This document shows, one piece after another, positions 10,622 to 59,056 of a DNA stretch of 64,000 nt. Positions within the stretch are counted from its first letter, which is position 1. Each line of letters starts with the position of its first letter. Below the pieces are notes generated by a model, which was not told where the DNA came from, did no database searches, and was given only the letters and a program-made list of their open reading frames with translations. This DNA comes from Escherichia phage mio. Location: sequence record MN850631.1; one strand, given 5' to 3'. The position numbers were made by a program, and so were the translations under genes.

Positions 10622-11348
10622 CCCCTTTTAACCAGCACTTCAGGTTATTAGCATCATAATTCAGTTTCGGGTATGAGGTTACATGGAACTGCTCACCATC
10701 ATAGTAGACAATATCTGCAATCCATAGTCCATTCTCTTTACAGAAGTCTTTATCTGCTTTAGAGGTAATTGGATTAACTTCTACAAAACCATCTACACCC
10801 AAATCCTTTAAGCTACCTACAATACCTTTGCAGATAACGCATGTCTCAGATACTACCACAAAAAGTTCTTGGCTTTCAAGTTCTACAATGTATTCACCAA
10901 GCTGTACTTTAGGGAGATTTGATTGCTTCATAATCTTCCCATCGGCTGCACGAACAATCGCATACCACTCTTTACCATCAACTACTGACATTCTGATAAT
11001 ACACTCTTGACCAGTACGCTTTTCAATGTCTGCAAGACGTTTTAAAGCTTCTTCATAGTCATCTGTGTACTTCAGGTCATTATTATGGCAAACAGCTTTC
11101 ATAGCACCGTTATGGTCATGTTGTGACAGATAAATTAGACCGTCAAGAACATATTGCAAATCTGCCTGAGCATCCAGTGTCTCAATGGGGTCTTTCTCTT
11201 CAATTGCTTTTACAAGCTCTTTTGCTTCTTCAAGCATACACAGAGACTGGGATTTCAAAGACTCCCAATACTCATCACTGTAAGGTTGCTTTTGGGTGTT
11301 TCCGCAACGAAGATTCCAGTTTTTTACTGATTCTCTTGAGTTAAACAT
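10593..11348 (-). CDS. hypothetical protein, N-terminal region possibly MazG-like NTP pyrophosphohydrolase
   Basis: 251 aa; N-terminal acidic helical segment (LEEAKELVKAIEEKD ... DLQYVLDGLIYL) reminiscent of all-alpha NTP-PPase; weak. Confidence 0.3.
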   Translation of the reverse strand: MFNSRESVKNWNLRCGNTQKQPYSDEYWESLKSQSLCMLEEAKELVKAIEEKDPIETLDAQADLQYVLDGLIYLSQHDHNGAMKAVCHNNDLKYTDDYEEALKRLADIEKRTGQECIIRMSVVDGKEWYAIVRAADGKIMKQSNLPKVQLGEYIVELESQELFVVVSETCVICKGIVGSLKDLGVDGFVEVNPITSKADKDFCKENGLWIADIVYYDGEQFHVTSYPKLNYDANNLKCWLKGVGYNGFTEH

Positions 11349-50122: not shown

Positions 50123-51739
50123 TCAACGTCTAAGCCCCTCATATGGGTTTCCTCTCACTAAGTCTGTGTGAGCACCCATTGATGGTGGCTTGAATAATTT
50201 AACTTCGTTAAGACTGTTGAAAGCATCACTGGTAGCATCCACTTGGTCATCTTTAGTTTTGCCATCACCACAAAAGCCTTCAAGCTCTTGGAAATAAGCT
50301 TCGTTCCAACTACCTCTCAAAACTTTTACAAGTCCAGCTTCAGAAGCAGCAGAAAACCCCGCAAATCGGGTAACTTTATCTTTATTGGTTGGTTTAGCTC
50401 TTGCACGATAGCCTTTCTCGGCAAGTTTCCTGATGAGGGATGTTGCGTAGGATTTACCAGCAGCGCCTGGGTCTTGAGGGATAAAAATACCAGTTCGCTT
50501 ACCGTCACTTTCAGCAGTCAAATTAATTTGTGTTTCGACTCCAGAGGGTCTATCTCTAAATCTTACTACATCAATGATATAATAGCAACCGTCTTTTTTA
50601 GATTTACCCATCTTAACACCTGCTGTCCAGTCTGGATTAGGGTTAATTTCAGATGGTAAAGTTGCTGCTAAGTCCCATGCTCTAACATCAAATACATCCT
50701 CTGGGAGTGAATCAACAATTTCACACCATTGTCTTTGCCAATAGTTTGAACCTTCTGCACGTGCCTTCCAGTTACCGAAACGAAGTCTTGCAACGTTTAC
50801 AGGGGTGTTGTTTTCCAACTTACCACGGTACTTGGGTTCTAAGAAGTCAAGAATTGGGTTATCATCAATCGTACCAGAGATGAAGGTGTATGTTTGAGGA
50901 ATCTCAAGAGGGAACATTTCAAGAATCTTATCTCTCTCCCAATCAGAAACCATCACACCATCATTCATTACATACCAACGAATACGACCACACTTTTCAG
51001 GGTCTGGATAACCTTCTTCATCTAAGAATGGTTCTACCCAATCATAAATAAAGTGGTCTCTGTCTGGGTTCATGGAAATCTTCATATATGAATCACCTTC
51101 AGCCCCAGAACGTAGACGGGTTTGTAGGTATGAAATCTGTGAAGCAGAGAAGTGTGTACCTTCGTCAAAGTAAATAGCTGAGTATTCAATACCCTGATGA
51201 CCTTCAGCGTGCTTTTCAAGTTCTAGATAGGTGAACTTGATAGTCGCCCCAGAAGGGAATGTGATAGTCATTTTCTGCTCGTGAGGAATCCCACCAAACT
51301 TACCAAATAGTTTCTTTGCAGCAGGCCATAAACCACCTTGTAACTGTGTTGTGTTTCGACGGAAATACACAGCATTATAGTTAGGGTCTTCAATAAATCT
51401 TAAAGAGTCCATTAACAATGCAGCAGTCTTACCAGCACCAGCAGCACCACCATAGAGAACCAAGTCAGCATTAGTGTTTAAAAAGACCTCTTGAGAACCC
51501 GGCTGAGGGGCTACATAGTTCTTATCAGTCATCAACTTAAAGATAAGGCGAACTTGGTCTGGTGTGTATCTTAATAAAGTCAGAATTTGAGTTGGAAGGA
51601 ATTTAGAGGGGTCTTTACCGAATGATTTGATAATTTCTTTTACTTCATCAGAAAGCCCCAACTCTCCAGCTAGGACTTTCCTAACATCTTCCACTCGCTT
51701 CTGCTTAACAGCATTTAAGTCCATTAAGCGCCTCCGCAA
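50123..51739 (-). CDS. terminase large subunit
   Basis: 538 aa; Walker A LYGGAAGAGKTAALL and Walker B-like AIYFDEGTH; C-terminal acidic nuclease-like region. Confidence 0.7.
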   Translation of the reverse strand: MRRRLMDLNAVKQKRVEDVRKVLAGELGLSDEVKEIIKSFGKDPSKFLPTQILTLLRYTPDQVRLIFKLMTDKNYVAPQPGSQEVFLNTNADLVLYGGAAGAGKTAALLMDSLRFIEDPNYNAVYFRRNTTQLQGGLWPAAKKLFGKFGGIPHEQKMTITFPSGATIKFTYLELEKHAEGHQGIEYSAIYFDEGTHFSASQISYLQTRLRSGAEGDSYMKISMNPDRDHFIYDWVEPFLDEEGYPDPEKCGRIRWYVMNDGVMVSDWERDKILEMFPLEIPQTYTFISGTIDDNPILDFLEPKYRGKLENNTPVNVARLRFGNWKARAEGSNYWQRQWCEIVDSLPEDVFDVRAWDLAATLPSEINPNPDWTAGVKMGKSKKDGCYYIIDVVRFRDRPSGVETQINLTAESDGKRTGIFIPQDPGAAGKSYATSLIRKLAEKGYRARAKPTNKDKVTRFAGFSAASEAGLVKVLRGSWNEAYFQELEGFCGDGKTKDDQVDATSDAFNSLNEVKLFKPPSMGAHTDLVRGNPYEGLRR

Positions 51740-52342: not shown

Positions 52343-53077
52343 TTATTTCTGTAATGCGCTCTTCATTTCTGGTGTTGCAATAGTATCAATCACACCAGTT
52401 TTACAAGCATCATCAAACCAGTCTGGTAAGATACCTGCTAAGAACCCATTGATATTCGTTTTAAGGTACTCTGCAATAAGGGCAGCTTCTTCTTCAATCA
52501 TCTGCACAACTTCATCTGCATAAGCTGTAATCTTTGAGATACCTTCATTAATCTTACTAACAGCCTGATTAGCTAAATCAGAAACAGTATCAAGACCCTT
52601 ATCAATAGCGTCTTGTAAGTCACTTAACACACCATTAACACTATCTAGTGTGCTGTTAATCATGTCAATAGCTTTTTGACCATATTCTGTAGCAACACCC
52701 ATAATACCACTGAATGGTGTACAACCAACTTGTTCTCCTGCTGCACCCATAACATTGGAATAACCCTTTGCTACCTGCATACGTGATGAAAACTCATCAA
52801 TAGATTTTTGACCATAGTCTGTTAGGGTCTTAGTAGTTGCTGTAGTGCTTGTCAGACTTGTTGTAAAGCTGTTTAGAAGGACTGTTGTAAGTCCAGCAGC
52901 AACAAGTTTCTCCTGCATTGTAGGGTCTGTTACAGAGCTAATAGAGCTTACAAGTGATGTAGAGGCAGCTACGGTTCCACCGAGAACTGCTGCACCAGTA
53001 ATAAGTGGGTTAGAAAACCCTTTACCGGTTTTTAAGAGATTAAAAATCTCCTTACCTTGTTCTGTCATCTCTTTCAT
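52343..53077 (-). CDS. hypothetical protein embedded in the tRNA array
   Basis: ORF 52343..53140 trimmed to internal ATG 53077 because the upstream part overlaps tRNA-Phe; Thr/Ser/Ala-rich. Confidence 0.35.
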   Translation of the reverse strand: MKEMTEQGKEIFNLLKTGKGFSNPLITGAAVLGGTVAASTSLVSSISSVTDPTMQEKLVAAGLTTVLLNSFTTSLTSTTATTKTLTDYGQKSIDEFSSRMQVAKGYSNVMGAAGEQVGCTPFSGIMGVATEYGQKAIDMINSTLDSVNGVLSDLQDAIDKGLDTVSDLANQAVSKINEGISKITAYADEVVQMIEEEAALIAEYLKTNINGFLAGILPDWFDDACKTGVIDTIATPEMKSALQK

Positions 53078-53093
53078 TAAGCACCTTTGAAAT

Positions 53094-53169
53094 TGGTAGT
53101 CCAGTGGGATTTGAACCCTCTTCTCATGTTTTTCAGACACGCGCTTTAACCATATAAGCTACTTGGACT
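53094..53169 (-). tRNA. tRNA-Phe (anticodon GAA)
   Basis: 76 nt; anticodon stem CGTGT/ACATG, loop CTGAAAA; T-loop GGTTCAAATCC; CCA encoded. Confidence 0.6.
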
Positions 53170-53528: not shown

Positions 53529-54086
53529 TTACTTTCTCAGTGGATGAATAAAGAATGCCAACATAACTCTTTCCCTTGAGAATGCTCTTTCTTCTGGGAC
53601 AACACTTTTTAGTTTCCATCCAACATAAATTCTCCAGTAAAACTGTTTACCAAAGACTTTAATTGATGGGATAAAAGCGAATAATCCCCAAGCATTACTG
53701 TTCCACATTAGGAGATAACCAGTCTGATTATCTTCAGGGTCAGAACTTACGTTGATATTACCTTTCCACTTAGTAACATCTTTTACATCTCTTCCTAACA
53801 CATGGTAAGAGAAGTTATAAGCTTTGTTTCTCCAGAGCCATCCAACTCTCTGCAAATAGACACCCAGCTTACCAATCTTTCTAATCTTAGCCCATCTTTT
53901 AACGTGGCCTTCGTCACCATCAATCGGGTTGTCGTAGGTTTCCATCCATCTGAATCCAAAAGGTAGGTGTCCTTTCTTCTCACTGTAGAATGGAACTACG
54001 AAAGGTGCTAAGATGACTGCTAGGGTTGCTGCAAATGGCTCTAGTAAAGCTAGGAAAATCCATGAAGCATACTTCAAATATCTCAT
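53529..54086 (-). CDS. hypothetical membrane protein embedded in the tRNA array
   Basis: 185 aa; N-terminal hydrophobic segment WIFLALLEPFAATLAVILAPFVVPF, Trp/Lys/Arg-rich remainder. Confidence 0.35.
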   Translation of the reverse strand: MRYLKYASWIFLALLEPFAATLAVILAPFVVPFYSEKKGHLPFGFRWMETYDNPIDGDEGHVKRWAKIRKIGKLGVYLQRVGWLWRNKAYNFSYHVLGRDVKDVTKWKGNINVSSDPEDNQTGYLLMWNSNAWGLFAFIPSIKVFGKQFYWRIYVGWKLKSVVPEERAFSRERVMLAFFIHPLRK

Positions 54087-54762: not shown

Positions 54763-54843
54763 ATTAAATCTTTTTAGAGAACTTCTAAGAACCTAAGCAA
54801 CAAGGTTCCACAACAAGCTGTAATAACCTTAGAAGCCCTCTAA

Positions 54844-54864
54844 AAAGACCTAAAAAAGGTCTTT
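54844..54864 (-). terminator. terminator-like hairpin inside the tRNA array
   Basis: AAGACC-(T)6A-GGTCTT hairpin; U-run follows on the minus strand; weak. Confidence 0.3.
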
Positions 54865-55341: not shown

Positions 55342-55689
55342 CTAATACTTTGCATGTCTTACCCTATGGCAATTTGAACATAGCAAAACACATTTGTCAA
55401 GTTCATCTTTTAGCTCTTGAGAGAACTTAAGGCTTTTCCTATGACCAATGTTAAAATCTTTATCTGAAGGATTCAAATGATGGAAGTCATACACTGCTGG
55501 ATGATACTTTTTACCACAATCATGACAAACCCCACCTTTGTACTCAATAGCTGAGAGTTTAAGTGCTCTTTGTCTTTCTATGGTTTGCTCATTAACACAC
55601 TTTTTACAGTATGAATGAGTTCTTCTACCATCTTTCATGTAGAAATCATTTTCATCCTTGCTAAGTTTGCACCTAATACAAGTTTTCAT
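55342..55689 (-). CDS. HNH homing endonuclease
   Basis: ORF 55342..55740 trimmed to ATG 55689 (upstream part overlaps a tRNA); CxxC ... HHLNP ... CSNCHRVRH HNH/zinc motif. Confidence 0.6.
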   Translation of the reverse strand: MKTCIRCKLSKDENDFYMKDGRRTHSYCKKCVNEQTIERQRALKLSAIEYKGGVCHDCGKKYHPAVYDFHHLNPSDKDFNIGHRKSLKFSQELKDELDKCVLLCSNCHRVRHAKY

Positions 55690-55703
55690 GATTTCTCCAA
55701 AAT

Positions 55704-55785
55704 TGGTCGAGGCGGCAGGACTCGAACCCGCATACTCCACTTACTCGGTTAACGGCGGTTTAGAAGACCGCTGAGATACGCCCCG
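55704..55785 (-). tRNA. tRNA-Arg-like (anticodon-type loop CTTCTAA = UCU), structurally anomalous
   Basis: 82 nt; T-arm GCGGG-TTCGAGT-CCTGC and acceptor CGGGGCG/CGCCTCG, but the UCU hairpin sits where the D-arm should be, followed by 23 unassigned nt. Confidence 0.35.
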
Positions 55786-56078
55786 TAATTATCTTTAAAG
55801 ACTCTCTTAGAAAGCCCTTAAAGATGCCCACCTTATTAATCATACCGTGGGCTAGTACGCCAAATTCTTTGATGAGGGATTGGAAGACCTCACTGGTGTT
55901 TAGCCTATCAAGCTACTGCCAGAAAAACATTGTCGTTTGCATTTATTTTAAATTTGCAAAATAGACGCTACGCAACGAAAACTATTCAGAATATGTACAA
56001 CAAATTTCCCCACATTGTGTTACGTCTAACGCTCATGTATTGGTGTTTGAATTATACATATTATGAAGTATTTTAGTT

Positions 56079-56107
56079 ACTATAAAGTGGTCACATCTCA
56101 ATGTCAA
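56079..56107 (-). promoter_or_regulatory. sigma70-like promoter driving minus-strand transcription into the tRNA array
   Basis: Minus-strand TTGACA (rc of 56102-56107), 17-nt spacer, TATAGT (rc of 56079-56084). Confidence 0.5.
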
Positions 56108-56280: not shown

Positions 56281-56356
56281 TGGTAGAAGTGGAGGGATTC
56301 GAACCCATCGCCTGTCAGATTAAAAGTCTGCCGCATCACCATTCTGCTACACTTCC
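56281..56356 (-). tRNA. tRNA-Lys (anticodon UUU)
   Basis: 76 nt; anticodon loop CTTTTAA; scaffold nearly identical to the CUU Lys tRNA at 54602-54677. Confidence 0.6.
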
Positions 56357-56361
56357 ATTAA

Positions 56362-56504
56362 ATTATCTTTGTAGATAAGCTACCCAGACTTGCTTAAGGT
56401 CTGTAGCGATGTGCATTGTTGGGTTTAAATCTAGAATTTACCCTTTCACCCTTTGTGGTCGCATACTCACAGGTAAGCTTAATAACTTATCTACAAAGAT
56501 AATT
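56362..56504 (-). ncRNA. structured element with 19-bp perfect terminal inverted repeat (candidate ncRNA or mobile-element remnant)
   Basis: AATTATCTTTGTAGATAAG (56362-56380) and its exact reverse complement CTTATCTACAAAGATAATT (56486-56504) enclose about 105 nt with internal hairpins; no T-loop; strand unknown. Confidence 0.35.
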
Positions 56505-56505
56505 A

Positions 56506-56636
56506 CCAGACCGTTGTTTATCATCTTAAGTGCTACCATTACACCAACTCGACCTCTGCCGAGTGAAGGAATCGAACCTTCGCCTTTTCTTTACCGAGAA
56601 ATAGATTGTTTAAGCTTTGCTGTAAACGGTCTTCTG
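56506..56636 (-). ncRNA. circularly permuted tRNA-like element (candidate Y-RNA-like ncRNA or permuted tRNA gene)
   Basis: In minus-strand sense: variable-arm hairpin TTTCT-CGGTA-AGAAA, T-arm GAAGG-TTCGATT-CCTTC, acceptor-like hairpin ACTCGGC-AGAG-GTCGAGT, D-arm-like GTG-TAATGGTAG-CAC, then TTAAGAT pairing back to ATCT and an 8-bp outer helix AGACCGTT/AACGGTCT. Confidence 0.45.
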
Positions 56637-56810
56637 TAAATTTGTTGAGCCAGACCAAGTTTTAAATTTTTCAAAATTAAATTGGCTTGAAATTTTAAGT
56701 AACTTGCTGTATTTGGTCTTCTGCTCCTTTAAAGAATACTCGTAAGAACTCTTTAAGGGAGGGGCTAAATAGCCCTCTCAAAACATCATTTTGAAATACT
56801 TATTATAATT

Positions 56811-57068: not shown

Positions 57069-57145
57069 TTAATACATTGCCAGACCGTGTTTTTTCTTTT
57101 ATCCGCAAAAAGTAGTTTGTTGCTGCATACAGTCTTCTGCAAAAT

Positions 57146-57222: not shown

Positions 57223-57313
57223 ATTCTTAATGACCAGACCAAATCTCTTCTTTGTCCGATTTACCTTCAGATGAATAAGATTAAGTTTGCTGTAATTGGT
57301 CTTCTGTCAAAAC

Positions 57314-57476: not shown

Positions 57477-57593
57477 TAAACTTTTCAAACTCTATGTAAC
57501 CACTTTAACATTATTTTTTAGTGATTGTCAAGAACTTTTTTAAAATATTTTTCAGTATCTTAGAAAAGCTCTCATTTCGTTTCTATGTAGAAC

Positions 57594-57640: not shown

Positions 57641-59056
57641 TTACCAGATATAACGGTCAATCATTACTGCTTTGAGCATTACGCTGATTGGGTCAAACTT
57701 CTCACCACCAAGCAGAGCTTTTAAAGTGGCTGGAGAGAAACCAGATACCATTGCTACACCGTTATCCTTAACAGACACTTCGCAAGTCCCATTACGGTTT
57801 GCTAAGTACCAGAATACCAGTTGTGGCATCTCATATCCAGATTTTTTGTACTTACTCTGAATTGCTTCAAAGTTTGTACGACCATTAGCTCCATCAACCT
57901 GATTGAACTCCATATCAGAGAAGATGATAAGCTTACTTGGCATATCTTTCTGAGTCAAGTTGTTTCTTTTACCTACCTCAAGAATGCGGTCAAAAGCTGC
58001 TTGTAAGTTAGTTGAGCCATATTCAACGTGTCGCATCACCTGACGATGACGGTTTTGTAAATCACCACTCAGTTCGATGAAGTGAGGGTTTGTTGAATAA
58101 ACCATTAACTCGTTCTTAAAGCAACCTGTATTGCGTTCTGCTACATACAATGCAAGTGATACACCAATATCAAGAGCAGTAATTGAACCAAAATTCACCC
58201 AAGACATTGAGCTTGAGACATCAGTCATACACAAGATGTTTTCACCCTCTGCCATCCAGTTTGGTAGTGCTTTCCACTGCTCATTAGCAACATCTGCATT
58301 ACCATGCTTAACAGATTTAATCACATCGTATGGGTAAACAGCACCAGCGTTAATCTTAGACTCACCCTTTGAGAGTGATTCGATGTAAGCTTTGTAACGT
58401 TCTCCATCTTTACGGTTAAAGAGCTTTTGGTAACGTGCAGCAGCGAGTGAAGGAATCTTGCTGTAGTCAATCTTACCAAACTCATTAGCAGAGATTTTTT
58501 GCTCAACCGTATCAGACAGTGCAGATAACAGTGTGCGGTACTCTTTCTCGCTTAAGTTTGCAAACTTACAGAAACGTTTTACAAACTGTTTGTGGCGTGG
58601 TTTTACTCGTGGCAGCCACTTAGCTGCTAAACCTGCTGTTGCAGGGTCTAGCAATGCTGCTTCTAAATGCTTGAAGGCATCTGTCTCAAAACGAGTACCT
58701 ACGAAGATTTTGAAGTCATCAAAACGACCAAGTTCTGCAATCTTATCCATAATGCGAAGAACCTGTGTAGGCTCTAAAACTTTATCTTCAATTGCTTGAA
58801 GCAAGACAGTTCTGAAGGCTTTACGCTCACCCATACCTTCTCGTACATCTCGCATATGCAGTAAAATACGAACTGCGACATCAACATCCTCACGCAAAGC
58901 TTTGTAGAACAGGTCTGGTAAGATTTCTACATTGCTACGGCTTGAACCAGCAGCTTTGTAAAAGTCTACAAGAGCAGACATTGATGAAGTATGGTTTACA
59001 GCACCATTTTCAGTTCGACCTGCATGAAGGTGCGCATGTTTAAATAATTCGCTCAT
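57641..59056 (-). CDS. Ro60/Rsr-like protein (TROVE-like N-terminal region + von Willebrand factor A domain)
   Basis: 471 aa; C-terminal vWA with MIDAS-type CMTDVSSSMSW plus IIFSDMEF, SKYKKS and GFSPATLKAL, which parallel segments I recall from the Ro60 vWA domain (DVSASM, IVFTDNE, REYRKK, GFDTGALDV); N-terminal 260 aa helical; memory-based comparison only. Confidence 0.5.
   Translation of the reverse strand: MSELFKHAHLHAGRTENGAVNHTSSMSALVDFYKAAGSSRSNVEILPDLFYKALREDVDVAVRILLHMRDVREGMGERKAFRTVLLQAIEDKVLEPTQVLRIMDKIAELGRFDDFKIFVGTRFETDAFKHLEAALLDPATAGLAAKWLPRVKPRHKQFVKRFCKFANLSEKEYRTLLSALSDTVEQKISANEFGKIDYSKIPSLAAARYQKLFNRKDGERYKAYIESLSKGESKINAGAVYPYDVIKSVKHGNADVANEQWKALPNWMAEGENILCMTDVSSSMSWVNFGSITALDIGVSLALYVAERNTGCFKNELMVYSTNPHFIELSGDLQNRHRQVMRHVEYGSTNLQAAFDRILEVGKRNNLTQKDMPSKLIIFSDMEFNQVDGANGRTNFEAIQSKYKKSGYEMPQLVFWYLANRNGTCEVSVKDNGVAMVSGFSPATLKALLGGEKFDPISVMLKAVMIDRYIW

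What the first reader, a model, noticed from the sequence alone, without database searches (positions are those of the whole stretch)
56362..56504. 143-nt element bounded by a perfect 19-bp inverted repeat inside the tRNA array
AATTATCTTTGTAGATAAG and its exact reverse complement flank about 105 nt containing further hairpins (CAGAC-TTGCTTAAG-GTCTG; GGGTTTAAATCTAGAATTTACCC). A perfect 19-bp terminal stem is unusual for a spacer and sits directly beside the permuted tRNA-like element. It could be a long-stem ncRNA, a processing platform, or a miniature inverted-repeat insertion.
Basis: seen in the sequence. Interest (0 to 1): 0.6.

Follow-up and report, generated by a model that had tools for sequence, protein, structure and literature searches.

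The report
Pseudoknotted small RNA beside phage tRNA-Lys
The inverted repeat is real and forms the long closing helix of a conserved, folded non-coding RNA gene of about 144 nt that matches no Rfam 15 family, sits in the tRNA operon of Felix O1-type phages next to a Ro60-like gene and Y-RNA-like RNAs, and has no known function.

Summary
A perfect 19-bp inverted repeat (56361-56379 / 56486-56504) bounds a 144-nt element in the minus-strand tRNA operon of a Felixounavirus.

It is not a mobile insertion. It is single-copy in the window and absent from 5,426 E. coli genomes. It sits at the same site in about 250 Ounavirinae genomes.

As minus-strand RNA the repeat extends to a 24-bp helix, P1. P1 closes a three-way junction with P2/P3 and P4. 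The P4 loop pairs with the strand just after P1, forming pseudoknot PK1.

Ten diverged lineages keep this architecture, always 0-11 nt upstream of tRNA-Lys(UUU). Their helix sequences are mostly only 17-50% identical, with many compensatory and G·U changes. No Rfam 15 family matches.

The gene 1.1 kb upstream encodes a Ro60-like protein (fold search). Four neighbouring RNAs look like Y RNAs, and one carries a permuted tRNA-like domain.

Best reading: a stable structured ncRNA cut from the tRNA precursor, with RNase P making its 3' end, possibly working with the phage Ro60/Y-RNA module. Expression, ends and function are inferred, not shown.

The parts
56361..56504 (-). Whole element: a 144-nt structured ncRNA (RNA position i corresponds to window coordinate 56505 - i)
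   Evidence: Conserved at this site in relatives. The covariance model scores 149 bits on the minus strand, but it was built from this strand, so that score is not independent evidence.
56481..56504 (-). P1, 5' strand (RNA 1-24): AAUUAUCUUUGUAGAUAAGUUAUU
   Evidence: Pairs with 56361-56384: 19 perfect base pairs plus 5 more, including 3 G·U that exist only in the minus-strand RNA. In helix 1, 8 of 24 pairs change on both sides in alignment A4.
56361..56384 (-). P1, 3' strand (RNA 121-144): GGUAGCUUAUCUACAAAGAUAAUU
   Evidence: It ends 4 nt (UAAU) before the 5' end of tRNA-Lys(UUU).
56474..56478 (-). PK1, 5' half (RNA 27-31, GCUUA), in the strand joining P1 to P2
   Evidence: Complementary to UAAGC in the P4 loop. 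It covaries across lineages: GCUAA/UUAGC, UGUUCA/UGAACA, UUACUA/UAGUAA, UGCUU/AAGCA.
56392..56396 (-). PK1, 3' half (RNA 109-113, UAAGC), inside the 9-nt P4 loop CUUAAGCAA
   Evidence: core pairs are 92-96% paired, against 10-38% when the partner is slid by 1-3 columns. Four of 5 pairs change on both sides.
56459..56462 (-). P2, 5' strand (RNA 43-46, GCGA)
   Evidence: Pairs with UCGC at 56406-56409. Other lineages have GCGG/CCGC, GAGU/ACUC, GGGU/ACCC and GGGU/ACCU. All cells are paired (100%) in the hand-made alignment. The register in types A and C is shifted relative to the others, so this helix is the least certain.
56406..56409 (-). P2, 3' strand (RNA 96-99, UCGC), 2 nt before P4
56421..56443 (-). 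P3 hairpin (RNA 62-84): GGGUAAAUUCUAGAUUUAAACCC, with a CUAG tip
   Evidence: GAUUCUAGAUU is shared by alleles A and B. Within allele B the hairpin shows compensatory changes (AUUUCCU/AGGAAAU, AUUUCUU/AAGAGAU, GUUUCUU/AAGAGAC).
56385..56403 (-). P4 hairpin (RNA 102-120): CAGAC[CUUAAGCAA]GUCUG, running directly into the P1 3' strand
   Evidence: 100% paired, with 2 of 5 pairs changed on both sides. Across 10 lineages it is 100% paired and all 6 pairs change on both sides.
56281..56356 (-). Context: tRNA-Lys(UUU), immediately downstream on the RNA. RNase P cleavage at its 5' end would create the element's 3' end (inferred).
   Evidence: The same neighbour is found in all 10 lineages.
56505..56636 (-). 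Context: permuted tRNA-like RNA ('E4'). A T arm, an acceptor-like hairpin and a D arm are closed by the stem CAGAAGACCG.../...CGGUCUGG. It lies 1 nt upstream of P1.
   Evidence: The acceptor-like stem covaries: ACUCGGC/GUCGAGU, ACCCUUC/GAAGGGU, ACACG/CGUGU.
57641..59056 (-). Context: 471-aa Ro60-like protein gene (Pfam DUF2828 + DUF7788) heading the tRNA/ncRNA cluster
   Evidence: (mean pLDDT 85). The top 12 PDB fold matches are all Ro60/Rsr/TROVE proteins.
57502..57531 (-). Context: promoter-like site (TTGACA, 18-nt spacer, TAAAGT) upstream of tRNA-Pro. It is the likely start of the Pro...Ile operon that contains the element.
   Evidence: a consensus match only. The next strong promoter-like site is at 56079-56107, after tRNA-Ile.

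Best explanation
The element is a gene for a structured non-coding RNA of about 144 nt, read on the minus strand as part of the phage's Pro...Ile tRNA operon.

Shown: the inverted repeat is its closing helix P1, 24 bp here and 23-30 bp in relatives. P1 closes a three-way junction. One branch is P2 capped by variable hairpins (P3). The other is the hairpin P4, which runs straight into the P1 3' strand. The 9-nt P4 loop (CUU....AA) pairs with the 4-6 nt that follow the P1 5' strand, forming pseudoknot PK1. The fold is conserved in ten diverged phage lineages while the sequence is not.

Inferred: the RNA is released from the polycistronic precursor. RNase P cleavage at the 5' end of tRNA-Lys(UUU), 0-11 nt downstream, would make its 3' end. 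Its 5' end would come from cleavage at or in the base of P1 (RNase III or RNase E, or 3' processing of the upstream tRNA in some lineages). The product would then act in trans as a stable shaped RNA.

Its most likely partner is the phage's Ro60-like protein and Y-RNA-like module encoded in the same cluster. A long helix with a short 3' tail is the kind of ligand Ro60 proteins bind. The biochemical role is unknown.
For: - **Strand and RNA-level selection.** Single-sided changes in P1 give G·U or U·G pairs only on the minus strand.
- **Covariation on an unfitted alignment.** On MAFFT alignment A4, 98.5% of cells are paired, against 33-42% when partners are slid. Ten of 29 pairs change on both sides, against 0-1 when slid. 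No shuffle out of 500 reached the observed percentage paired, double-change counts or covariation score.
- **Ten lineages.** Their Ro60-like proteins are 52-100% identical. Identity between their P1 5' strands is mostly 17-50%, yet P1 is 95% paired, P4 100%, P2 100% and the PK1 core 92%.
- **Compensated pseudoknot.** The PK1 sequences differ and are compensated in at least 5 forms.
- **Fixed position.** The element is always directly upstream of tRNA-Lys(UUU), while the upstream neighbour varies between E4, an E3-like RNA and tRNA-Ala.
- **Widespread in the subfamily.** Allele A is in 195 records and allele B in about 60, and about 252 records encode a Ro60-like protein at least 60% identical.
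- **Operon context.** A promoter-like site lies upstream of tRNA-Pro, and the terminator scan lists no minus-strand site between it and the element.
- **Ro60 context.** Pfam DUF2828 + DUF7788 and a PHROG annotated 'RNA-binding protein'. A confident model whose best 12 PDB fold matches are all Ro60/Rsr/TROVE. The Ro60-like gene followed by a tRNA/ncRNA array is conserved in the distant phages examined.
- **Literature.** Phage Ro60 homologues with nearby Y-like RNAs are documented (PMC4201824, PMC12135203, PMC12282133).
Against: - No transcript, end-mapping or binding data exist for this RNA, and no Felixounavirus transcriptome paper was found.
- The RNA lacks the Ro-binding motif reported for Y RNAs (GNCGAAN0-1G, or CGAA in a bulge). 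In this phage P1 is a perfect helix without the bulge typical of Y RNA stems.
- Co-occurrence with the Ro60-like gene cannot be separated from shared ancestry.
- The hand-made 10-lineage alignment was guided by the structure, so its percentage paired is biased upward.
- The covariance model built from alleles A, B and C recovers only one further lineage convincingly (E = 1.2e-4). Two are marginal (E = 0.09 and 0.42) and three are missed.
- Phage SP116 lacks the element together with tRNA-Lys, so it is dispensable for plaque formation on at least one host.
Confidence: 0.6

Rival explanations
1. The element is only an RNase III processing platform. The 23-30 bp helix exists to be cut by host RNase III, splitting the long tRNA/ncRNA precursor as the stems flanking 16S and 23S rRNA do, and the enclosed sequence is a by-product.
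For: P1 is at least 23 bp in every lineage, about two helical turns. From established knowledge, that length suits RNase III. The element sits between other RNAs separated by only 0-11 nt. The interior is far more variable than P1's outer half.
Against: The interior is not free to vary. P4, P2 and the pseudoknot are kept by compensatory changes in all lineages. tRNAs on either side can be released by RNase P and 3'-end nucleases without RNase III. Several lineages carry mismatches or bulges in mid-P1.
Confidence: 0.15
2. The element is a cis-acting 5' leader of tRNA-Lys(UUU). The fold would control or protect maturation of the adjacent tRNA, which is the classical target of anticodon nucleases such as PrrC.
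For: It lies 0-11 nt upstream of tRNA-Lys(UUU) in all 10 lineages, although the upstream neighbour changes. In phage SP116 the element and tRNA-Lys are lost together.
Against: The linkage may simply be conserved gene order. The SP116 deletion is explained by recombination between two T-loop sequences. P4 does not follow the anticodon stem of the neighbouring tRNA-Lys across lineages. A possible miniature relative in two more distant phages (L068, L074) is not directly upstream of tRNA-Lys.
Confidence: 0.12
3. The element is a counter-defence decoy or specificity RNA. The fold would bind and neutralise a host factor, for example a tRNA-targeting or RNA-sensing defence protein, and the two alleles would reflect an arms race.
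For: Two alleles (A and B) are only about half identical in their interiors, yet they sit between almost identical flanks in near-identical phages. That pattern is typical of loci under diversifying or balancing selection. The element lies in a tRNA array, and phage tRNAs are reported to evade tRNA-targeting defences (references cited in PMC12916289, seen).
Against: No target is known, and no similarity was found to any known RNA-based inhibitor. The allele pattern can also arise from recombination with a distant lineage, since allele A shares motifs with type C.
Confidence: 0.08
4. The element is a new self-cleaving ribozyme or ligand-sensing RNA that processes or regulates the operon.
For: It has a compact pseudoknotted three-way junction inside a polycistronic RNA.
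Against: Very few unpaired nucleotides are invariant across lineages, essentially only CUU...AA in the P4 loop. Ribozyme and riboswitch cores usually hold many invariant positions. No Rfam ribozyme or riboswitch family matches, even at E up to 10.
Confidence: 0.04
5. The element is a miniature inverted-repeat transposable element, or a DNA-level palindrome such as a cruciform, protein-binding site or origin.
For: It has a perfect 19-bp terminal inverted repeat and is about 140 bp long.
Against: There is one copy in the window and none in 5,426 E. coli genomes. There is no target-site duplication and no empty-site allele was found. The helix is maintained through G·U intermediates, which would be A·C mismatches in DNA or on the other strand. 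The interior helices covary.
Confidence: 0.02

Closest known systems
Y RNAs, the Ro60-associated ncRNAs of bacteria and phages (YrlA/YrlB; Yrl1/Yrl2 of Thermus phage phiLo)
   Same: It is encoded within about 1.1 kb of a Ro60-like gene, in the same orientation. Its 5' and 3' ends pair in a long stem that encloses a structured interior. It is accompanied by several other small RNAs, one of which (E4) has the YrlA-type tRNA-like module (PMC4201824, PMC12135203).
   Different: It has no GNCGAAN0-1G or CGAA motif and no bulged Ro-binding helix. It is larger, at 142-166 nt against the 80-130 nt given in PMC4201824. It has a loop-to-junction pseudoknot that neither of the Y RNA papers read here mentions. 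No Rfam family matched. Ro60 binding is untested.
Stable RNAs C and D (species 1 and 2) of the phage T4 tRNA cluster
   Same: They are small stable RNAs of unknown function encoded inside a phage tRNA gene cluster, directly beside tRNAs and on the same strand. That they are co-transcribed and processed with the tRNAs is my own background knowledge.
   Different: No sequence or structural similarity was found. T4 rnaC ends in a canonical T arm and is tRNA-like, rnaD folds weakly (z = -0.8), and neither shows the P1/P4/PK1 layout. No Ro60-like gene is annotated in the 5 kb of T4 examined.
RNase III processing stems (rRNA operon stems, T7 early-region sites)
   Same: It is a long near-perfect duplex formed by distant segments of a polycistronic precursor and enclosing an RNA that could be excised.
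   Different: The enclosed part here is a small conserved pseudoknotted domain, not an rRNA or mRNA. Cleavage is untested.
phi29-type packaging RNA (pRNA)
   Same: It is similar in size, with a terminal helix formed by the two ends, a three-way junction, and a short loop pairing that covaries while the primary sequence drifts. This comparison rests on my recollection of pRNA.
   Different: The phage type is different: a myovirus with a T4-type large terminase. The element sits in a tRNA operon. No Rfam family, pRNA included if it is in the library, matched. Whether the loop pairing is intramolecular or intermolecular is unknown.

Membership tests
Y RNA (Ro60-binding ncRNA) | Encoded next to a Ro60/TROVE gene | tested here: met
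   The 471-aa protein gene at 57641-59056 lies about 1.1 kb upstream on the same strand. Its best fold matches are all Ro60/Rsr/TROVE.
Y RNA (Ro60-binding ncRNA) | The 5' and 3' ends pair in a stem that flanks a large internal loop or module | tested here: met
   P1 of 23-30 bp encloses a core of about 95-115 nt in all 10 lineages.
Y RNA (Ro60-binding ncRNA) | Conserved Ro-binding motif near the 5' end or in a stem bulge (GNCGAAN0-1G; CGAA; GGUCCGA in animals) | tested here: not met
   No such motif occurs in P1 or in the strand joining P1 to P2 in any lineage, and P1 of this phage has no bulge. Motif definitions are from PMC4201824 and PMC12135203.
Y RNA (Ro60-binding ncRNA) | Physical binding to Ro60 | not testable with these tools
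   This needs a pull-down or a gel-shift assay.
YrlA-type Y RNA (tRNA mimic) | T-arm and D-arm modules with tRNA consensus loops | tested here: not met
   The element has no T-loop or D-loop consensus and no tRNA-clan hit. The neighbouring E4 RNA (56505-56636) does have them.
Miniature inverted-repeat transposable element | Terminal inverted repeats | tested here: met
   Perfect 19-bp arms.
Miniature inverted-repeat transposable element | Multiple copies, target-site duplication and presence/absence polymorphism at the insertion site | tested here: not met
   One copy in the window, none in E. coli genomes, no duplicated flank. The site is occupied in all relatives examined except one larger deletion that also removes tRNA-Lys.
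RNase III substrate | About two turns (20 bp or more) of mostly regular double-stranded RNA | tested here: met
   24 bp here and 23-30 bp in relatives.
RNase III substrate | Cleavage by RNase III in vivo or in vitro | not testable with these tools
   This needs a comparison of rnc mutant and wild-type hosts, or an enzyme assay.
Any Rfam 15 family (including ribozymes, riboswitches, tmRNA and 6S, as far as the library holds them) | Covariance-model match at or near the gathering score | tested here: not met
   The best hits have E of 0.9 or more and 12-19 bits, against gathering scores of 41-100 bits, for this phage and two other lineages.
T4 stable RNAs C/D | Sequence or structural similarity to rnaC or rnaD | tested here: not met
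   The folds differ, and model R1 reported no hit in the T4 locus L153.
Retron ncRNA | Flanking inverted repeats plus an msd hairpin and an adjacent reverse transcriptase gene | tested here: inconclusive
   Inverted repeats are present. No long msd-type hairpin is seen, and the P4-loop pseudoknot has no retron counterpart. None of the seven neighbouring ORFs I scanned hit a reverse transcriptase family, but the rest of the window was not scanned.

The most novel reading that the evidence does not exclude
The RNA is the founding member of a new functional class: a pseudoknotted phage RNA that works with the phage Ro60-like protein and Y-like RNAs. It might redirect a host exoribonuclease, or protect or replace tRNA-Lys(UUU) against anticodon-nuclease defences. 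The two deeply diverged alleles (A and B) circulating among otherwise near-identical phages would be the trace of an arms race with a host factor.
Probability: 0.12. Interest if true: 0.85.

Novelty: new variant of a known kind. Interest (0 to 1): 0.6.

Why it matters
Felix O1-type phages are classical Salmonella and E. coli typing and biocontrol phages, yet this part of their genomes is annotated only as tRNAs, spurious small ORFs or nothing.

The analysis shows the tRNA array is a mixed operon of tRNAs and at least five other structured RNAs, headed by a Ro60-like gene. The role of bacterial and phage Ro60/Y-RNA systems is still poorly understood.

A compact lytic-phage module offers a tractable system for genetics and biochemistry. 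It contains one Ro60-like protein, several Y-like RNAs (one of them a tRNA mimic) and an additional conserved pseudoknotted RNA.

The RNA is also a candidate for a new RNA family entry. It should stop being annotated as a hypothetical protein, as several deposited records now do.

Tried and rejected
**Hypotheses tested and rejected**
- **Mobile element or host origin:** no other copy in the window and none in E. coli genomes.
- **Known RNA families:** five Rfam scans at permissive thresholds on three lineages gave nothing meaningful.
- **Relation to T4 RNAs C and D:** fetched and folded, no resemblance.
- **Mimic of the tRNA-Lys anticodon arm:** in this phage P4 (CAGAC CUUAAGCAA GUCUG) resembles the neighbouring anticodon arm (CAGA CUUUUAA UCUG). 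P4 does not follow the tRNA's stem in the other lineages.
- **Suppressor-type anticodon loop:** the UUCUAGA tip of P3 could be read as anticodon CUA. There is no T arm, the stem is weak, and the tip is not conserved in lineages D-J.
- **Small peptide gene:** the longest minus-strand ATG frames I read by eye are 8 codons (allele A) and 11 codons (allele B) and are unrelated. Deposited 'hypothetical protein' calls over the element are probably spurious.
- **Kink-turn or archaeal bulge-helix-bulge reading of the bulged E stems:** the sequence requirements are not met (by inspection).
- **Retron-like ncRNA:** see the membership test.

**Methods that failed or gave only weak results**
- **Forcing my hand alignment through MAFFT by padding with N:** MAFFT re-gapped it. 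The 10-lineage pair counts are therefore from my own script. The tool count is on the unfitted A/B/C alignment.
- **Covariance model from alleles A, B and C:** it finds lineage I (E = 1.2e-4), finds F and G only marginally, and misses D, H and J.
- **Relaxed structural scan of about 80 loci around distant Ro60-like genes:** it gave as many hits on the antisense strand (26) as on the sense strand (25), so there is no evidence for the family beyond the Felix O1-related lineages. A possible 112-nt miniature version in L068 and L074 remains unproven.
- **Literature searches for Felixounavirus transcriptomes or small RNAs:** nothing relevant was found.
Full report
**1. The observation**

The window is a Felix O1-type myovirus (Felixounavirus). 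The 1.8 kb around the finding is 93-98% identical to many such phages. ARAGORN finds 24 tRNA genes between 52169 and 57475, all on the minus strand.

The 19-mer AATTATCTTTGTAGATAAG lies at 56361-56379 and its exact reverse complement at 56486-56504. Even with up to 3 mismatches these are the only two occurrences in 64 kb, against 0.04 expected from shuffles. The repeat finder extends the arms to 22 nt at 95% complementarity. It is one of only four inverted repeats of at least 15 nt, with arms within 400 nt, in the whole window.

The element is therefore 144 nt, from 56361 to 56504, one base longer than reported. Each strand folds about 4.5 standard deviations better than shuffled sequence, so folding energy alone does not pick the strand.

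**2. It is not a mobile insertion**

- The element is single-copy in the window.
- It has no match in 5,426 complete E. coli genomes.
- The flanks show no duplicated target site.
- The sequence found here, which I call allele A, is present in 195 phage records, 189 of them full length.
- A second version, allele B, occupies exactly the same site in about 60 further records. These include Mooglevirus, Escherichia phage SUSP2 and some Felixounavirus genomes.
- Together this roughly equals the 252 records that encode a Ro60-like protein at least 60% identical to the one in this window.
- The only genome found without the element is Salmonella phage SP116. It lacks tRNA-Lys as well, and its junction reads as a fusion between the T-loop of the upstream tRNA-like RNA and the T-loop of tRNA-Lys. 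This is a recombinational deletion, not an empty site.

**3. It is an RNA, read on the tRNA strand**

As minus-strand RNA the repeat extends to a 24-bp helix, P1. The extension includes three G·U pairs that would be A·C mismatches on the other strand or in DNA.

Natural variants change one side of a pair to give G·U or U·G in this orientation only. Examples are L011, L018, NBSal004 and SPJ41.

I counted pairs on alignment A4, a plain MAFFT alignment of 14 distinct sequences of types A, B and C that was not fitted to any structure:

| Measure (P1 + P4, 29 pairs) | Observed | Partner slid by 1-3 columns |
|---|---|---|
| Cells forming a standard pair | 98.5% | 33-42% |
| Pairs changed on both sides | 10 | 0-1 |

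None of 500 shuffles reached the observed percentage paired, the counts of changes on both sides, or the covariation score. All 500 did reach the count of further pair types.

**4. Architecture**

Alleles A and B share the outer half of P1, the tip GAUUCUAGAUU of hairpin P3, and the hairpin P4 with its 9-nt loop. The rest of the interior is only about half identical, even though the flanking tRNA-Lys and the upstream RNA are nearly identical.

I then followed homologues of the Ro60-like gene (section 6) into more distant phages and found the same element in eight further loci:

| Type | Locus | Ro60-like identity to this window |
|---|---|---|
| C | L061, L065 | 62-63% |
| D | L062 (Yersinia phage vB_YenM_P778) | 53-54% |
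| F | L066 | 56% |
| G | L067 | 53% |
| H | L149 | 55% |
| I | L150 | 54% |
| J | L151 | 52% |

All ten lineage representatives (A, two forms of B, C, D, F, G, H, I, J) share the following features:

- **P1:** 23-30 bp, with 0-3 mismatches or one small bulge.
- **PK1, 5' half:** a 4-6 nt segment within 0-4 nt after the P1 5' strand, complementary to the P4 loop.
- **P2:** a 4-bp helix (GRGU/ACYC in most lineages, GCGR/YCGC in A and C) closing a variable domain of one or two hairpins.
- **P4:** 2-3 nt after P2, a 4-6 bp hairpin with a loop of the form CUU....AA.
- **P1 3' strand:** follows P4 with 0-1 nt between.

The pseudoknot sequences differ and are compensated:

| PK1 5' half / P4 loop partner | Lineages |
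|---|---|
| GCUUA / UAAGC | A, C |
| GCUAA / UUAGC | B, D |
| UGCUU / AAGCA | F, H |
| UGUUCA / UGAACA | G |
| UUACUA / UAGUAA | I |
| GCAA / UUGC | J |

Pair counts on my hand-made alignment of the ten lineage representatives:

| Helix | Cells paired | Partner slid by 1-3 columns | Pairs changed on both sides |
|---|---|---|---|
| P1 | 94.9% | 40-47% | 29 of 32 |
| PK1 core | 91.8% | 12-35% | 4 of 5 |
| P2 | 100% | 29-56% | 2 of 4 |
| P4 | 100% | 13-44% | 6 of 6 |

Identity between lineages in the P1 5' strand is mostly 17-50%. The closest pairs, A/C, D/J and the two B forms, reach 72-83%.

This alignment was built from each sequence's own helices, so the percentages are biased upward. The unbiased points are three: every lineage has the same set of helices, at the same genomic position, with different sequences. 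P2 is the least secure helix, because its 5' strand sits in a different register in types A and C.

A covariance model built from A, B and C only finds lineage I at E = 1.2e-4. F and G are marginal (E = 0.09 and 0.42), and D, H and J are missed.

**5. Position and likely processing**

In all ten lineages the P1 3' strand ends 0-11 nt before the first base of tRNA-Lys(UUU). The upstream neighbour differs:

- The tRNA-like RNA E4 in Felix- and Moogle-type phages, only 1 nt away.
- An E3-like RNA in L061 and L065.
- tRNA-Ala in L066, L067, L149, L150 and L151.

A promoter-like site (TTGACA, 18-nt spacer, TAAAGT) lies upstream of tRNA-Pro at 57502-57531. The next strong one follows tRNA-Ile at 56079-56107. 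The terminator scan lists no minus-strand site in between.

From this I infer that the RNA is made as part of the Pro...Ile precursor. RNase P would create its 3' end when it matures tRNA-Lys. The 5' end would come from RNase III or RNase E, or from tRNA 3'-end processing in lineages where a tRNA lies upstream. None of this is shown.

**6. Genomic context: a Ro60-like gene and Y-RNA-like neighbours**

The 471-aa ORF at 57641-59056 (minus strand) heads the cluster. It matches Pfam DUF2828 + DUF7788 and a PHROG annotated 'RNA-binding protein'. No PDB chain matched significantly by sequence.

An AlphaFold model built from 27 homologues has mean pLDDT 85 and pTM 0.85. Its twelve best PDB matches are all Ro60/Rsr/TROVE proteins: D. 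radiodurans Rsr, Thermus phage phiLo Ro60, and Xenopus and human Ro60. These are full-length alignments with probability 1.0, E from 2e-7 to 4e-6, and query TM-scores of 0.48-0.65. vWA domains follow further down the list.

Related phage proteins are annotated 'Ro-like RNA binding protein' in mycobacteriophages. In the ten more distant loci where I mapped both genes and tRNAs, the gene is followed by a tRNA array.

Between 56505 and 57310 there are four RNAs, which I call E1-E4. Each has a 5'/3' stem (CAGAAGACC... / ...GGUCUGG, with a 3-nt bulge) immediately followed by UACAGCAA.

E4 (56505-56636) carries a permuted tRNA-like module in the order T arm, acceptor-like hairpin, D arm. Its acceptor-like stem covaries between phages. 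This is the architecture described for YrlA-type bacterial Y RNAs. Y-like RNAs next to phage Ro60 genes have been reported (PMC4201824, PMC12135203, PMC12282133).

**7. What the element is, and is not, relative to known families**

- **Rfam:** no family matches in this phage or in two other lineages. The best E-value is 0.9, far below the gathering scores.
- **Y RNAs:** it shares the location next to a Ro60 gene and the terminal stem. It lacks the Ro-binding motif and bulge, is larger, and has a pseudoknot. I do not file it as a Y RNA.
- **T4 RNAs C and D:** it resembles them only in being a stable-RNA-type gene inside a tRNA cluster.
- **RNase III:** P1 is long enough to be a substrate, but the conserved core argues for a function beyond being cut.
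- **Ribozyme or riboswitch:** few unpaired positions are invariant across lineages, essentially CUU...AA in the P4 loop. This argues against a ribozyme or riboswitch core and for a shape-dependent partner such as a protein.

**8. Verdict**

The best-supported account is a conserved, pseudoknotted, processed ncRNA of a kind not yet catalogued, embedded in a phage Ro60/Y-RNA/tRNA module. I put about 0.9 confidence on 'a structured RNA gene on the minus strand'. I put about 0.3 on the specific link to the Ro60-like protein. The combined statement gets 0.6. Its function is unknown and needs experiments.

Noticed in passing
window 57641-59056 (minus strand): A 471-aa protein (Pfam DUF2828 + DUF7788) whose predicted structure matches Ro60/Rsr/TROVE proteins over its full length. 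It heads the tRNA array, and the same gene followed by a tRNA array recurs in distant phages.
   Followed up: yes
window 57233-57310, 57076-57140, 56650-56730, 56505-56636 (minus strand): Four RNAs (E1-E4) share a closing stem CAGAAGACC.../...GGUCUGG with a 3-nt bulge, followed by UACAGCAA and a variable insert. They look like Y RNAs. E4 carries a permuted tRNA-like domain (T arm, closed acceptor-like stem, D arm) with compensatory changes between phages, as in YrlA.
   Followed up: partly
window 56651-56718 (minus strand, E3): Weak Rfam hit (15 bits, E = 5.5) to Dictyostelium Class I RNA. Those RNAs also have a short 5'/3' stem, a conserved motif (CCUUACAGCAA in the Rfam model consensus) right after the 5' stem strand, a variable remainder, and a 3' end reading ...CUG. 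The shared UACAGCAA may be coincidence or a common protein-recognition motif.
   Followed up: partly
window 55704-55785 (minus strand): A tRNA-like sequence with an encoded CCA end, a normal T arm and an anticodon loop CUUCUAA (UCU, Arg). It has no clear D stem and a long extra arm. ARAGORN does not call it, and Rfam gives only a weak tmRNA-type hit. By eye it is identical in the distant locus L061. Relatives annotate tRNA-Arg(TCT) at this place.
   Followed up: no
window 55787-55976 (minus strand): A stretch downstream of the promoter-like site at 56079-56107 appears, by eye, to be conserved in L061. It gives weak Rfam hits to tmRNA models (15-20 bits, below threshold). It may be another ncRNA.
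   Followed up: no
window 54764-54853: A 26-nt inverted repeat (85% complementary, 38 nt apart) lies just after tRNA-Leu(UAG). It would form another long hairpin RNA in the array (weak Rfam MIR473 hit).
   Followed up: no
window 55342-55695, 53529-54086, 52343-53140 (minus strand): Protein genes are interspersed in the tRNA array: an HNH endonuclease-like ORF, a DUF7338 protein (annotated as holin in phage Mushroom) and a DUF7217 protein. The large terminase subunit follows at 50123-51739.
   Followed up: partly
L061:5091-5168 and L062:9901-9982: A conserved spacer of about 80 nt (...CACCUGCGCGGCUGGAAACACCCACUCAA...) lies between tRNA genes in two distant relatives. It is absent from the window, where tRNA-Lys and tRNA-Met are 4 nt apart. 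It may be another small RNA family.
   Followed up: no
window 56421-56443; inner hairpins of L062, L067, L151, L150: The apical hairpins inside the element often carry palindromic sequences: UCUAGA in A and B, ACUAGU in C, AACGUU in D, G and J, GCGC in I. This could allow loop-loop dimerisation. It was not tested statistically.
   Followed up: no
L068:11600-11711 and L074 about 10690-10800: A 112-nt element has a similar layout: a 15-bp terminal helix, a 4-nt segment complementary to a 9-nt hairpin loop ending in CAA, and that hairpin lying next to the 3' strand. It occurs in phages whose Ro60-like protein is 47-48% identical, but it is not directly upstream of tRNA-Lys. It may be a distant relative.
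   Followed up: partly
L066:8839-9028 and L149:6644-6855: Long-stem elements of 190-212 nt lie just upstream of tRNA-Pro in two relatives, again with a hairpin loop complementary (GAUUA) to the strand after the stem. They may be a second family with the same design.
   Followed up: no
L001 (KP143762, phage Mushroom) and L006 (KM236239, phage Moogle): These records list the tRNA features on the strand opposite to the one on which ARAGORN finds the homologous tRNAs in the window. This looks like a strand error in the deposited annotation. Several other records place 'hypothetical protein' CDSs over the ncRNA element.
   Followed up: partly
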